Translations under genes and position numbers: made by a program
Shown here: positions 44,201 through 53,200 of the stretch, piece by piece
How positions within the stretch are numbered: the first letter of the stretch is position 1
Layout: each line of letters starts with the position of its first letter
NCBI GenBank assembly: GCA_964016885.1
Contig: OZ024756.1
Location: forward strand, 36,146,001 to 36,210,000
Origin: Eledone cirrhosa
Lineage: Eukaryota
DNA: 64,000 nucleotides
Direction of reading: 5' to 3'
The notes under the pieces: model-generated
The model's input: only the letters and a program-made list of their open reading frames with translations
Database searches by the model: none
What the model was told of the DNA's origin: nothing

Positions 44201-47200
44201 ACCATGGTCACGTCCTCGCTGGATGTGTGTGGCTGCAAGGTCAAGCCCTGTTCCAGGAAAGTCTTGTAAGTATTTGTTGGTCAGTTCATCTGTTATGTAT
44301 CTGGAGGAAAGAAAGACACATATACTGTATCATCTGGCAGTTGAGTGTAGTTTCAGTGAGATCCAACTGCTTTTTCTAGCACATCAAATGACTGCATAGT
44401 GTATGTATGTGAAAGAGGTGTTCCGATCAACAGAACAGCCTGCTCATGAAATTAACGTGCAAGTGACTGAGCATTCCACAGACACGCATACCTTTTATGT
44501 AATTCTCAGGGAGATTCAGTGTGACACAATGTGTGACAAGGCCGGTCCTTCGAACTACAGGTACAACTCAATTTTGCCAGCTGAGTGGACTGGAGCAACG
44601 TGAAATAAAGTGTCTTGCTCAAGGACACAATACGCCACTGGGAATCGAACTCACAACCTGACGATTGTGAGCTCACTACCCTAACCACAAAGTTATGTGC
44701 CTTCACAGAAATATGGTTAGGAAAGGGTTAAAGAGAACTTACCGGTCAACTTTCTGGCTGGAGTCTGTGAGCATTCCTTTAATCACTTTACTAGTAATGT
44801 CCTCATCATTGTAGAAGATGTCCGAACGCAGGAACATAGAACTAAGGTCGTGAGAGGAGGTGTCGACAGTGAAGTTTTTTCTCATCATAGATGTAGAGAA
44901 CTGACCAGCGGCTGTAGAGAAAACATTGAAAACAGATGCCTGGACACGACTGTCATAACCTGTATAGCCGTATTTCAGGACATTCAGTCCATGTTTGGCC
45001 ATGAACCGAGGACCCAAGATATAAGGCAGGTACTCGTTGTATGTGAAGTGTTGTATCTCAGCAATAACAATACGCCGACTCTCCTGGAAGAGTTTCTCAT
45101 CGTCCCAACTGGAGTGCATATTTGACAGGTGGTTGGCAATACGGTTGTGTTCACGGAGGAATATAACGTGTAGAGACAGGATCAGTGGGTTCTCATTCAA
45201 GCGGTCATCACCTTAACGAAGGGGGAGAGAAAGTGAGAGTGAGTAATGGATTCACATTTACAGTTAAATAGAATCAAATGGTGTTTTGTGTACATGTAGA
45301 GGGTCAATATTGATCATATCTCTAGAACAGCGTTTCTCAACCAGTGTTCCCCGGAACCCTAGGATTCCGCAAAAGGTTGCTAGGGGTTCCGCAAGAACCA
45401 GGGATAAATAAACTAATGTATTTCTTAAAACTAATTTTTGTTTAATTTTATATTCGTAATTTTACTCTGCATTTACGGCATATTGTCGGAAAATCCTTGT
45501 TTATTTTAAGAAAGACTTCAACCTCTTATATTATTTAAAACTAGGTCAATATAAGAGATAGATATTAATAATGGTATATAATAATTTTTATGTAGGGGTT
45601 CCCTGAGACATGAACCTATTTCAAGGGTTCCACAAGGGTAAAAAGGTTGAGAAACGCTGCTCTAGAGGTATGGTCAATATTAACCTTGAAACCTTAGTTA
45701 ACGCTTTTGTTCCGTGTATGAATATAAATAAATAATTGCTTCTACTTTTGGCACAAGGCCAGCAATTACCCCAGTGCATTACTGGTACTTTATTTTATCG
45801 ACCCTGTTAGGATGAAAGGTAAAGTTAACCTTGGCGGGATTTGAACTCAGGCCGTAAAGGGACGTAACACTATGCTATAAAGCATGGCGTCCGATCCTCT
45901 ACTGATACTGCCAATCCACCGCCTTAAATAAATAATGGTTTCTTATATAGGCACAAGGCCAGCAATTCTGGGGGAGGGGAAAGTCGATTCAATCGACCTC
46001 AGTGCATTACTGGTACTTTATTTTATCGACCCCGTAAGGATGAAAGGCAAAGTTAACCTCGGCGGGATTTGAACTCAGAACGTAAAGAGCCGTAACTCTA
46101 TGCTGTAAAGCATGGTGTCCGACCCTCTACCGATACTGCCAATCCACCGCCTTAAATAAATAATATATCAGCTCTCTTCCCCATTGAGTATTGTTTTCCT
46201 TTTTCCTTTTTCAGACTTATATATTTCAGACATATATATGTGCACACATGCACATATATATGTGCACACATGCACATACACGCCAGGTAGAGCTGCTACT
46301 TCTCCAAATTGAGAGATCACAGCTCCGATACTATGAGCATGTGATAAGAATGTCTCAGGAAAGAATTGCTGGACAGATTTTATGGGCAAAAACCAGCCGT
46401 CAGGTAACCGAGGGGTAGACCCCAAACAAGATGGTTGGATAACATCCATGAGTTTTGCTGGCTACACTTGGAGATCCAGCCAGATTAGTTTGAGATGGTG
46501 TCTTCTGACAGGTCCCGCTGGAGAGAGTGTATGAGGACTCCACCCCCACGACCCTCCCAGGAATAAGTAGGCGAAGGAGTGTATGAGGACTCCGCCCCCA
46601 CGACCCTCCCAGGAATAAGTAGGCGAAGGAGTGTATGAGGACTCCGCCCCCACGACCCTCCCAGGAATAAGTAGGTGAAGGAGTGTATGAGGATTCTGCC
46701 CCCACGACCCTCCCAGGAATAAGTAGGTGAAGGAGTGTATGAGGACTCCGCCCCCCACGACCCTCCCAGGAATAAGTAGGTGAAGGAGTGTATGAGGACT
46801 CTGCCCCCACGACCCTCCCAGGAATAAGTAGGTGAAGGAGTGTATGAGGACTCTGCCCCCACGACCCTCCCAGGAATAAGTAGGCGAAGGAGTGTATGAG
46901 GACTCTGCCCCCACGACCCTCCCAGGAATAAGTAGGCGAAGGAGTGTATGAGGACTCTGCCCCCACGACCCTCCCAGGAATAAGTAGGCGAAGGAGTGTA
47001 TGAGGACTCTGCCCCCACGACCCTCCCAGGAATAAGTAGGCGAAGGAAAGAAGAAGATTATATATGCTAGCGTGGAAAGTGGACGTTAAACGAAGATGAT
47101 GATGATGATGATGATGGTGATATATATACACACAAAGAGAGTGAGAGAAAAGACAGACAGATAAATAAATATACAAAGATTGTTACCTGCCAAGAAACAA

Positions 47201-50200: not shown

Positions 50201-53200
50201 GGGGCCTGTCACAATATATGGTGACATAAGGGGCCTGTCCACATTATATGGTGACATAAGGGTCCCTGTAACAATATATGGTGACATAAGGGTCCATATT
50301 TAGTCTTTGGAGATCCTCTGTATTCAAGGCCACATCTTGCTACAACTCATACTCAAACATCACACAATATACTCTTCATGCTGAGAGAGAGAGAGAGCAG
50401 TGCATGTATGTGTGTACATACGTAAAAATAAGTGGTTTCCTTATTGCTTACCTTGCATAGTGGGGACATAGGCAATGTCTCTCATTAGAAACTCCCCAAA
50501 CACAGCAGTCAGATGTGTTGTGTTGCTGTCCAGGGGTGTAAGTTCTCGCTTCTGGTGATAGGACACACTGATCTTCCTCGCTCCAGGCAATACTCCATTC
50601 TGGACACTACTGTTACGGGGCTCATAGAGAGCTGAGGGATGGAGAGAGAGACAGAGAGAGTGAGTGAGAGCAAGTAAGAGAGAGAGAGAGGGAGAAAGAA
50701 AAAGAGAGACGACTGTAATATGAAAAGATAAATTGAAGCAGAAGGAACTGAGATAATTGTTTCTACTTTTGGCACAAGGCCAGCAATTATCTCAGTATAT
50801 TACTGGTACTTTATTTTATCGACCCCGTAAGGATGAAAGGCAAAGTGAACCGTGGCGGGATTTGAACTCAGACCATAAAGGGGCATAACTCTATGCTGCA
50901 AAGCATGGTGCCCGACCATCTACCAATACTGCCAATCCAACTGAGATAATGAAAGGCAGTGAGTACCTCTTAGTCTGGTGAGATCCAAGGCAAACACACT
51001 TGTACTGGTGCCATGATAAAATACACCCAGTATAAACTGTAAAGTGGTTGACAGTCACAGACAGTGTAAGGTCGAGAGGATCGTTTATTTTGGCTCAGAA
51101 CATAACAGGTTACCTAGTGTTAGTGTCAAGATAAAATGTAACTAGTACATTCTGTAAAGTGGTTGGCACTCGAACAGAGACAACATTGTATTAAGAGGAC
51201 CTTTTAATCCTAATGAGAACATAACAACCATTCTTGTGATGCCACAATAATAAAATACACCCAGTACACTCTTTAAAGAAGTATTGCTAGTGTCATGATA
51301 AAATATGCCCAGTACACTTGGTAAAGTGTTTGGCAATTAATGTATTAATCTCCAAACATCTAAATATTAGATATCAAATTTCCAGAAGTCCTAATTCACA
51401 GATGTCTTAATCTCCAGATAACCTATTAGATGTTTTAATCCCCAGAAAAATGACATAATCCCTATACATTTAAATCCCAGATGTCTTAATGACCAGATGT
51501 ACCAATCTCCATATGTCCTAATCTTGTTTTAAAAATGTTTTAATCTCTAGCTGTTCCAACCTCTATATGTTCTAATCTTTGGTTGTTCCAACCTCTATAT
51601 GTTCTAATCTTTGGTTGTTCCAATCTCTATATGTTATAATTTTTGGCTGTTCCAATCTCCAGATGTTCTAATCTCTGGAGGCCTTAATATCCAGTTGTTC
51701 AAAAAGATGTTTTGATACCCAGGCAGATCAACAAATCTCTTTCAAATACTTACAGTCTTGGTAAAAGGGGGGTCTCATTCGACGTAGAGGTGTGAGACTC
51801 TTGCCCCAGTAAGGGTTATCAATGTTGTTACAGGAACCATCAGCTGTCCGATATGCAGAGTTCTTGTTACATTTAAGTGACTCAAGATAAGGGCACGAAT
51901 ATTTCAAAATCTGTGGGGTGGTCAAATAGCGTAAGAGTTGTTCTCCAAGATTCTGGCTGAAACTGTATTGAGACAGAAGAGATGAGGATATGGTTGATTA
52001 CGTATAGACGACAGGGTCATGAGGGTAGGAGAAGGAATGGGTGTGGTTAATTAGATATAGATTCGGTGAGGTGGAGGTGGAGGTGGCGGAATAAATGACT
52101 TGGGTGGGAGTATTAAAAGAGTAAGAAGAAAAGGAAAGAAAGTGTGAAAGGAAGGGGATTGGATAGGGGTAGGTACAAGGAGAGGACAGAGAGAAAGGTA
52201 TGATGGATGGTACTCACTTCTTATAGAACTGTTCCAATGTAGCTGTATACACCAAACCTTTCAGTGAAATCTGGGATCCATTCTTAGAAAGAACTGTCAT
52301 GGAATCTCGGTATTTCAGACTCATTTCATTGAATTCTGTAATATATAAACATATAGAGTGGTGTATAGTTGTTGTTGTTATTGTTGGTGGTTGCGGGGCG
52401 GGGGCGGGTGTAATTAGGTGTGATGGTGTCCACGCTACATATACATTGATTATCTCCCTTTCCAAATCTCTCTAACGTGGAAGATAGACATCAACAAAAC
52501 AACATCGATTTTATCATTCTACATCCTTCAAAACCTCCATGCTTCATGAAATTCGCCAACACTACACCTGATATTCCCCCTCCATACTCACGCACACATG
52601 TATCTGTGTGTATATCATGACTCATACACTGTTCACTTTCCAGACACGTGTACATTATTCTATGTCCTATACATGCACCTTTGATGAGTTGTAGTGCACC
52701 TGAGCATCGTACACAATAGTTTTCATTACTATTACATTATTCCCTGAGGATGGTGGATCGGCAGAATTGGTAGAGCGTCGAACAACATTGCTTTGCGGCG
52801 TAGAGTTACGGTCCTTTACATTCTGAGATCAATTGCCGCCAAGGTTAGCTTTGCCTGCCATCCTTACGGGGTCGATAAAATGAAGTACCAGTAACGTACT
52901 GGTGTCAATTTAATCGACTTTTCTTTGCCTAAATCAGAAACCATTATTATATTATTCCCTAAGGGCCTGCAAAGATCACAGGGTAGACTGGAGTGGAGTT
53001 TTACCACAGCCCCTTCCGTGAGACCTAGCTAAAAGCATAATAAAAAAAAGGGTATATGTAAAGGTAAAACCTCAAATACTCACGATTGGAGACATAATCA
53101 TGTAATGTGGTTAATTCTTGGATCTGGCTGTGGGCCCTTCCAGTGGAAGTTAATAAACTGTTATCTACAGATTTTTTGTCAATTGATAGGGCTGATAGAT

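What the first reader, a model, noticed from the sequence alone, without database searches (positions are those of the whole stretch)
44883..50500. Intact peroxidase-family gene lacking both catalytic histidines (pseudo-peroxidase)
Seen: the distal motif reads FGEFLMRD (50500-50477) in place of WGQFLDHD, so myeloperoxidase-equivalent Q91->E, haem-ester D94->M and distal H95->R. The proximal motif reads AAGQFSTS (44912-44889) in place of AAFRFGHS, so R333->Q and proximal H336->T. The R239/E242-equivalent RLNE and the fold motifs are retained, and all 14 exons are in frame. Known: these His residues are required for haem ligation and compound I formation. A-to-I editing cannot turn AGA or ACA into a His codon. 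Inference: a secreted non-enzymatic scaffold, adhesion or matrix protein.
Basis: partly seen in the sequence, partly recalled or inferred. Interest (0 to 1): 0.7.

Follow-up and report, generated by a model that had tools for sequence, protein, structure and literature searches.

The report
Haem-less cephalopod peroxidase-fold pseudoenzyme
This octopus-type gene is intact, spliced and conserved, and encodes a peroxidase-shaped protein that has lost the residues that hold and use haem, so it is likely a secreted non-enzymatic relative of the squid ink and light-organ peroxidases; such dead peroxidase domains are known elsewhere, but this cephalopod lineage seems undescribed.

Summary
The gene has 14 GT-AG exons in frame (782 aa, 60623-40901, minus strand), and a transcript contig splices across intron 10 with no mismatch. 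Both catalytic histidines are gone (R221, T464), as are Q91, R333, G335, L406, F407 and N421 (MPO numbering). The window keeps 79 of 91 family-conserved sites, and 8 of the 12 losses are haem-pocket sites. Orthologues in three Octopus species share the losses, and substitutions avoid conserved columns (7/137 vs 100/253), so this is not pseudogene decay. A tree nests it in a cephalopod clade (100/100) with the Sepia melanogenic and Euprymna light-organ peroxidases. Proximal His loss is shared by a 7-row subclade; the distal His went later (P0365 keeps it). New here: a clade-wide Leu406-to-Tyr change (14/14 vs 0/328 His-keeping domains). Best reading: a secreted, haem-free, non-catalytic binding or scaffold protein. 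Its partner and tissue are unknown, and the integrin KGD motif is not conserved. His-less peroxidase domains are a known kind (DUOX; 83 of 411 domains sampled here), so this is an independent cephalopod variant of modest interest.

The parts
60668..60675 (-). TATA-like box 45 nt upstream of the inferred start codon
   Evidence: read from the sequence; function inferred
60604..60623 (-). exon 1 (ATG, codons 1-7; inferred)
   Evidence: N-terminus matches orthologue P0002
53084..53247 (-). exon 2: hydrophobic signal-peptide-like stretch and start of pro-region
52218..52335 (-). exon 3: helical pro-region
51754..51962 (-). exon 4: start of An_peroxidase domain
50452..50631 (-). exon 5: distal helix; E217 (MPO Q91), M220 (D94), R221 (distal H95; codon 50482-50480), D222 (Ca ligand D96 kept)
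49914..49956 (-). exon 6
49053..49174 (-). exon 7
48568..48669 (-). exon 8: Ca2+-site loop (48643-48623; S295, Y297, D299, S301 at MPO T168, F170, D172, S174) essentially kept
   Evidence: ligand list from PMC5437232
47187..47300 (-). exon 9
44743..45211 (-). exon 10: R361/E364 (R239/E242 kept); proximal helix Q461 (R333), S463 (G335), T464 (proximal H336; codon 44894-44892)
   Evidence: matched by transcript contig with 0 differences
44088..44300 (-). exon 11: Y524 (L406; codon 44272-44270), L525 (F407), H539 (N421; codon 44227-44225), R542 (R424 kept)
   Evidence: spliced to exon 10 in run X1
43045..43211 (-). exon 12: position of the peroxinectin KGD motif reads DGD
42536..42638 (-). exon 13: end of An_peroxidase domain
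40901..41225 (-). exon 14 to the stop codon: TSP1-like domain (about 41161-41033, below the Pfam cut-off) and Q/T/K-rich tail
   Evidence: E 0.026; orthologue E 0.0013; tail pLDDT under 50

Best explanation
This is an intact, spliced, conserved gene for a peroxidase-fold protein that lacks both haem-site histidines and six other pocket residues, is therefore predicted to be haem-free and catalytically dead, and likely works as a secreted non-enzymatic binding or scaffold component of an extracellular secretion or matrix. Shown: the sequence, splicing of one intron, the pocket-specific losses, constraint on the rest, and the tree position. Inferred history: a cephalopod gene duplication gave canonical, melanogenic/light-organ and His-less lineages. 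The His-less ancestor lost the proximal His together with G335, L406, F407 and N421, with Tyr and larger side chains likely packing the vacated cavity; Q91 then became Glu, and the distal His was lost later, more than once. Inferred mechanism: a Ca2+- and disulfide-stabilised apo-fold plus TSP1-like domain offers a basic surface (pI about 9, against 5.0 for the canonical paralogue) that would bind acidic glycans, pigment polymer or matrix proteins.
For: Window keeps 79 of 91 sites that are at least 90% conserved in His-keeping domains. Comparing the not-kept list with the window's residues gives 12 losses: 8 at haem-pocket positions (Q91, H95, R333, G335, H336, L406, F407, N421), a Cys pair lost together, and two others. 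The roles of H95, H336, N421, R333, Q91 and the Ca ligands come from passages of PMC5437232, PMC4420034 and PMC3533774; L406, F407 and G335 as haem contacts are recalled. Differences to O. bimaculoides: 7 of 137 conserved columns vs 100 of 253 variable ones (Fisher p 4e-15); 219 differences over 780 positions with no stop where about 12 would be expected if neutral. Orthologues P0002, P0122 and P0003 and the unnamed P0032 cluster share E..RD and lack the proximal His. Proximal positions differ even between the two Octopus orthologues (L/Q at R333, H/L at N421), as expected of an unused site. The AlphaFold model of P0002 has pLDDT 89 and TM 0.87-0.89 to MPO/LPO. Spliced contig of 2550 nt, 0 mismatches over exons 10-11. 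Tree support 100/100 for the cephalopod clade and 98/96 for the His-less subclade.
Against: No haem-binding or activity data exist. Human DUOX domains lacking conserved residues are said still to bind haem weakly (passage in PMC6368334). R239, E242 and R424 are kept. The matrix or scaffold role has no direct evidence: tissue is unknown, KGD is not conserved, TSP1 is below the Pfam cut-off and shared with His-keeping paralogues, and the clade's motifs were not found in the O. vulgaris ink proteome supplement, where both His-keeping paralogues occur (file cut when stored). The lineage evolves about 2.6 times faster than the canonical paralogue (tree path 0.124 vs 0.047 for comparable Octopus pairs), so constraint is relaxed. 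The model is of the 72%-identical orthologue, without haem, and its coordinates could not be inspected.
Confidence: 0.62

Rival explanations
1. Ligand-switched haem protein: the clade-wide Tyr at the L406 position replaces His336 as axial ligand (catalase-like), giving a haem binder or scavenger or an unusual catalyst.
For: Tyr in 14 of 14 cephalopod His-less rows, 0 of 328 His-keeping domains and 1 of 69 other His-less domains, that one in an indel region. R239, E242 and R424 are kept. Weak haem binding is reported for DUOX domains. Drosophila IRC, a peroxidase-family protein, has catalase activity (passage in PMC9956595; its residues were not checked).
Against: G335 is replaced by S, P, I or L in all 8 clade members tabulated, R333 is lost in octopods, and the distal His is unstable (R, H or Q across the clade). 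The distance from L406 to the iron was not measured.
Confidence: 0.1
2. Regulatory pseudoenzyme: it binds an active paralogue (canonical or melanogenic peroxidase) as chaperone, anchor or inhibitor.
For: Same architecture and opposite charge (pI 9.0, 8.8, 8.2 vs 5.0). It shares a contig length with a His-keeping paralogue in three Octopus assemblies, so likely the same chromosome.
Against: The clade's motifs are absent from the searchable ink proteome in which both paralogues are found. Accession numbers in O. vulgaris are about 150 apart, so not adjacent, and there is no other peroxidase gene in the window.
Confidence: 0.13
3. Repurposed pocket: the empty cavity binds a non-haem small molecule or ion through the conserved distal polar cluster E217, R/H221, D222, R361, E364.
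For: E217, D222, R361 and E364 are invariant in 5 divergent members. Q91->E also occurs in 13 of 69 non-cephalopod His-less domains against 2 of 328 His-keeping ones, suggesting convergence.
Against: The same convergence fits a stabilising Glu-Arg salt bridge; D222 is a Ca ligand; R239 is kept in 58 of 83 His-less domains generally.
Confidence: 0.12
4. Decaying pseudogene.
For: Faster evolution than the active paralogue; a conserved Cys pair is lost in octopods.
Against: No stop or frameshift in 14 exons, strong bias of substitutions away from conserved columns, full-length ORFs in O. bimaculoides, O. sinensis and the unnamed relatives, and a spliced transcript.
Confidence: 0.02
5. Active enzyme rescued by RNA editing or an alternative exon, or an assembly error.
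For: Cephalopods edit RNA heavily (own knowledge); the distal exon was not covered by the reads laid.
Against: A-to-G changes cannot make a His codon from AGA or ACA. The transcript contig and three genomic-type contigs equal the window over exon 10. 118 of 123 tblastn hits fall on the model's exons and the other 5 have E of 0.18 or more. The same losses occur in other species.
Confidence: 0.01

Closest known systems
Sepia officinalis melanogenic peroxidase (O18504) and Euprymna scolopes light-organ peroxidase-like protein (Q24926)
   Same: Same cephalopod clade (100/100); An_peroxidase fold with a weak TSP1-like tail (scanned for O18504); about 45% core identity to O18504.
   Different: They keep both histidines (though Q91->V and R333->I) and have long Ala-rich pro-regions; this protein lacks both histidines and is basic.
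Canonical Octopus peroxidase (A0A0L8HBF3, A0A7E6FFI6 'chorion peroxidase-like')
   Same: Same architecture and clade; 43% core identity.
   Different: Keeps Q91, H95, R239, R333, H336 and N421; acidic; detected in O. vulgaris ink.
Dual oxidase peroxidase-homology domain
   Same: Peroxidase-cyclooxygenase fold without the proximal His and without peroxidase activity (PMC4420034 passage); fold match E 2e-30.
   Different: DUOX is a membrane NADPH oxidase fusion; this is a stand-alone protein with no transmembrane segment beyond the N-terminus, nearer to MPO/LPO by fold score and to invertebrate peroxinectin-like proteins by sequence.
His-less domains of nematode and arthropod double peroxidases, and hymenopteran single-domain His-less peroxidases
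   Same: Lack the proximal His, often both; some share Q91->E.
   Different: Separate origin (they fall outside the cephalopod clade), a different set of pocket replacements (no Tyr at L406), and mostly fused to a second peroxidase domain.
[quoted passage not shown]
   Same: Invertebrate, secreted-type peroxidase fold; adhesion is the published non-catalytic role.
   Different: Peroxinectins are active haem enzymes with KGD; here DGD, and NGD, KGD, EGD in relatives.

Membership tests
Peroxidase-cyclooxygenase superfamily (PF03098), by descent and fold | An_peroxidase profile match | tested here: met
   8 window exons hit PF03098 in profile order; orthologue P0002 E 1e-162 over positions 1-530
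Peroxidase-cyclooxygenase superfamily (PF03098), by descent and fold | MPO/LPO-like fold | tested here: met
   Model of orthologue P0002: TM 0.87-0.89 by target length, E 4e-41
Catalytically competent animal haem peroxidase | Distal G-Q-x-x-D-H-D with catalytic His | tested here: not met
   G-E-F-L-M-R-D
Catalytically competent animal haem peroxidase | Distal R-x-x-E | tested here: met
   R361-L-N-E364
Catalytically competent animal haem peroxidase | Proximal His hydrogen-bonded to Asn, with Arg333 | tested here: not met
   T464, H539, Q461
Catalytically competent animal haem peroxidase | Ca2+ site (D96, T168, F170, D172, S174) | tested here: met
   D, S, Y, D, S in the window; D, T, Y/F, D, S in orthologues
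Catalytically competent animal haem peroxidase | Bound haem and H2O2-dependent activity | not testable with these tools
   needs purified protein
Peroxinectin (family 3) | Integrin-binding KGD/RGD motif | tested here: not met
   DGD in the window; NGD, KGD, EGD, KGD in four relatives
Peroxinectin (family 3) | Cell-adhesion activity | not testable with these tools
   needs an assay
Dual oxidase (family 7) | Transmembrane, EF-hand and NADPH-oxidase domains | tested here: not met
   ORF ends at 782 aa; only An_peroxidase and weak TSP_1 in orthologues
Peroxidasin (family 2) | LRR, Ig and vWC domains on the same chain | tested here: not met
   None in the orthologues; the Ig exon at 21352-21519 lies about 19 kb past the stop codon and is read as another gene
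Thrombospondin type 1 repeat (PF00090) | Profile score above the gathering cut-off 21.6 | tested here: inconclusive
   15.2 bits in the window; 13.7-19.4 in six of seven relatives scanned, none in P0365; W-x-x-W-x-x-W and R-R-R-x-C pattern visible

The most novel reading that the evidence does not exclude
A cephalopod-specific lineage of the animal peroxidase fold has swapped its His haem ligand for a tyrosine (the clade-invariant Tyr at MPO Leu406), making a Tyr-ligated haem protein of the peroxidase-cyclooxygenase superfamily, a haem scavenger or catalase-like enzyme evolved from the ink and light-organ peroxidase family.
Probability: 0.1. Interest if true: 0.8.

Novelty: new variant of a known kind. 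Interest (0 to 1): 0.38.

Why it matters
Databases call these proteins 'chorion peroxidase', so cephalopod transcriptome and proteome studies could wrongly credit them with cross-linking or antimicrobial activity. The clade also gives a stepwise natural series of pocket decay next to two studied enzymes: canonical; Q91->V and R333->I with both His kept; proximal His lost; both lost. That makes it a tractable system for asking what haem-less peroxidase folds do, a question left open for the DUOX domain in PMC4420034. If the invariant Tyr ligates haem, it would be a ligand switch in this superfamily that I did not find in my searches.

Tried and rejected
No whole genome is held for the window, so synteny and paralogue counts in this species were not tested. 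dN/dS could not be computed because no orthologous coding DNA was available; a column-conservation test and a nonsense-expectation test were used instead. No RNA holder was listed on record; the four runs are one study, at most two samples, with no library or tissue given, so they say nothing on tissue; X1 is read as RNA only because its contig skips intron 10. Exon 5 alone found no solved structure, so the full orthologue was used. H539 at the N421 position as a migrated ligand was rejected: it is L, F or Y in relatives. H478 is not kept outside octopods. An invariant distal Arg was rejected: P0365 keeps His. Integrin adhesion through KGD was rejected. The O. maya oviducal 'chorion peroxidase' qPCR primers (PMC8976471 passage) have 0 matches in the window at up to 3 mismatches; this is weak, since the species differ. 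The first HMM tally split some domains and was superseded, which aligned 447 domains of 450 aa or more and dropped 36 with a gap at a scored column; the 411 rows include near-duplicates and are biased to relatives, so they are not frequencies in nature. The 48-row tree is a quick tree; the 30-row tree has bootstraps; test_one_clade was not run and the root is midpoint. Literature searches that found no description of this lineage: 0 papers; listings, none on this protein by title or abstract start; subscription journals are not covered. PMC2757993 is not held, so the position of L406 relative to the iron stays recalled. Earlier scan findings: none. No complex prediction was run.
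Full report
Observation. The minus strand carries 14 exons from 60623 to 40901 that join in frame into a 782-residue protein; all 13 introns are GT-AG. The motifs are at the stated places: FGEFLMRD at 50500-50477, RLNE at 45203-45192 and AAGQFSTS at 44912-44889, with AGA and ACA at the two His positions. Eight exons hit Pfam An_peroxidase in profile order and exon 14 weakly hits TSP_1. tblastn with 13 peroxidases gave 123 hits, 118 on the model's exons and 5 elsewhere at E of 0.18 or more, so the window holds no alternative exon and no second peroxidase gene. 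One public run (X1, library not on record) has a 2550-nt contig that skips exactly intron 10 and matches exons 10 and 11 with no difference. Its flanking lengths (863 and 1002 nt) fit the rest of the model, but only that one joint was seen, and exon 5 was outside the 2-kb stretch laid.

Register of the substitutions. The O. bimaculoides orthologue P0002 (72% identical, same distal octamer) aligns without gaps to the MPO distal motif. The window's proximal octamer aligns without gaps to Dictyostelium PoxA with T464 on the His; against MPO the register slips by one, but no His lies between residues 432 and 477. Passages of PMC4420034, PMC3533774 and PMC5437232 give the defining residues: distal Q91, H95, R239, E242, proximal H336 with N421 and R333, and five Ca ligands. 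In 411 usable domains (of 447 aligned; 36 dropped for gaps; near-duplicates included), 328 keep the proximal His. Of 91 sites at least 90% conserved among those, the window keeps 79. Its 12 losses are Q91->E, H95->R, R333->Q, G335->S, H336->T, L406->Y, F407->L, N421->H, a Cys pair (558 and 613), G182 and L368. That G335, L406 and F407 contact haem is recalled, not read. D94->M is uninformative: only 239 of 328 keep Asp. The Ca site and R239/E242 are kept. So the damage is aimed at the haem pocket, not spread over the fold. An AlphaFold model of P0002 is confident (pLDDT 89, pTM 0.88) and matches MPO and LPO at TM 0.87-0.89 by target length.

Relatives and history. Named orthologues are in O. 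bimaculoides (XP_014771227), O. sinensis (XP_029647729) and O. vulgaris (CAI9737911, partial), all annotated 'chorion peroxidase' or 'chorion peroxidase-like'; the window's protein is their sister, so the organism is likely another octopod. A 30-row tree gives a 13-row clade (100/100) whose named members are all coleoid cephalopods, with three branches. The first is a canonical Octopus enzyme with all catalytic residues. The second holds the Sepia melanogenic peroxidase, Euprymna Q24926 and their octopod counterparts, which keep both His but have Q91->V and R333->I (R333 tabulated for three of the four). The third is a 7-row subclade (98/96) that lacks the proximal His. Within it, a 5-row group (98/95) shares Q91->E; the distal site is Arg in the three octopods and the P0032 cluster but His in P0365, and His or Gln in the P0133 cluster. 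The simplest order is proximal His first, distal His later and more than once. The unnamed members carry no taxon; that they are squid or cuttlefish orthologues is a guess from tree position, and their long path to the window (1.15) allows older paralogy.

Constraint. Window and P0002 differ at 219 of 780 positions: 7 of 137 family-conserved columns against 100 of 253 variable ones (p 4e-15), with no stop where about 12 would be expected under neutrality (nonsense to missense ratio about 0.06). The lineage does evolve about 2.6 times faster than the canonical paralogue, and proximal pocket sites differ even between the two Octopus species. This is the pattern of a maintained protein with an unused pocket. 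dN/dS itself could not be computed.

New features. Tyr at the L406 position is present in 14 of 14 cephalopod His-less rows, 0 of 328 His-keeping domains and 1 of 69 other His-less domains, that one in an indel. It may fill the space left by haem and His336, or, less likely, ligate haem; G335 replaced by larger residues and the unstable distal His argue against the latter. Q91->E also appears in 13 of 69 non-cephalopod His-less domains but only 2 of 328 His-keeping ones; a stabilising salt bridge with the distal Arg is my inference.

Mechanism. Shown: intact, spliced, constrained gene; pocket-specific losses. Inferred from family chemistry: no haem iron ligation and no compound I (about 0.85). 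Inferred more weakly: secretion (hydrophobic residues 8-29, 7 sequons) and a binding or scaffold role through a basic surface (pI 9.0; 8.8 and 8.2 in two relatives; 5.0 in the canonical paralogue) and the TSP1-like tail. Against a simple adhesion story: KGD is not conserved, and the TSP1-like tail is shared with His-keeping paralogues. In the O. vulgaris ink proteome supplement (PMC10142993; passages and supplement searches; the file was cut when stored) motifs of both His-keeping paralogues occur, but motifs and accessions of this clade do not, so ink is not a supported site. A passage in PMC6368334 notes weak haem binding by DUOX domains, so residual binding is not excluded.

Comparison with what is known. 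By descent and fold it belongs to the peroxidase-cyclooxygenase superfamily; it fails the residue tests for an active haem peroxidase, the KGD test for peroxinectin, and the domain tests for DUOX and peroxidasin. Catalytically dead domains of this fold are known: DUOX lacks the proximal His and activity (PMC4420034), and 83 of the 411 domains here lack the proximal His, 58 lack both, many of them N-terminal halves of nematode and arthropod double peroxidases. I found no paper on this cephalopod lineage in ten searches of the open library; subscription papers, including the original Sepia and Euprymna cloning papers seen only as references, were not available, and bioRxiv supplements are closed. 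Passages only were also read from PMC3187790, PMC8976471, PMC8700984 and PMC9956595; none of those passages describes this protein.

Verdict. A real, well-supported pseudoenzyme; an independent cephalopod variant of a known kind. Interest 0.38. The boldest reading not excluded, a His-to-Tyr haem ligand switch, has about 10% probability and would deserve 0.8.

Noticed in passing
window 55624-56211 and 56836-57423 (intron 1): Inverted repeat with 588-nt arms, 97% complementary, 624 nt apart; could form long double-stranded RNA in the pre-mRNA (a likely editing substrate) or be a fold-back element or assembly artefact.
   Followed up: partly
window 5726-11599, + strand: Stop-to-stop open frame of 1957 aa, Ser/Lys/Thr-rich and repetitive, with no Pfam family above cut-off; probably a giant terminal exon of a neighbouring gene.
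   Followed up: partly
window about 21350-28000, - strand: Neighbouring multi-exon gene with an immunoglobulin I-set exon at 21352-21519 (E 2e-6), downstream of the peroxidase-fold gene.
   Followed up: partly
proteins P0131, P0375, P0241: The squid light-organ and ink 'melanogenic' peroxidase branch itself has Q91->V, R333->I and G335->S, and N421 is K or D in two members, so even these studied enzymes have a non-canonical pocket.
   Followed up: partly
proteins P0133, P0366, P0369, P0370, P0151, P0373: A second His-less cephalopod-type lineage (unnamed records) in which the distal site is His in some members and Gln in others of one 90% cluster.
   Followed up: partly
proteins P0186, P0188, P0190, P0192, P0195, P0209 (mostly spiders) and P0044, P0051 (mussel): Peroxidases with the distal His replaced by Tyr but the proximal His kept.
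   Followed up: no
window 46525-47047, 47558-48342, 50004-50292, 41275-42196: Intronic minisatellites with periods 52, 72, 29 and 13 nt.
   Followed up: no
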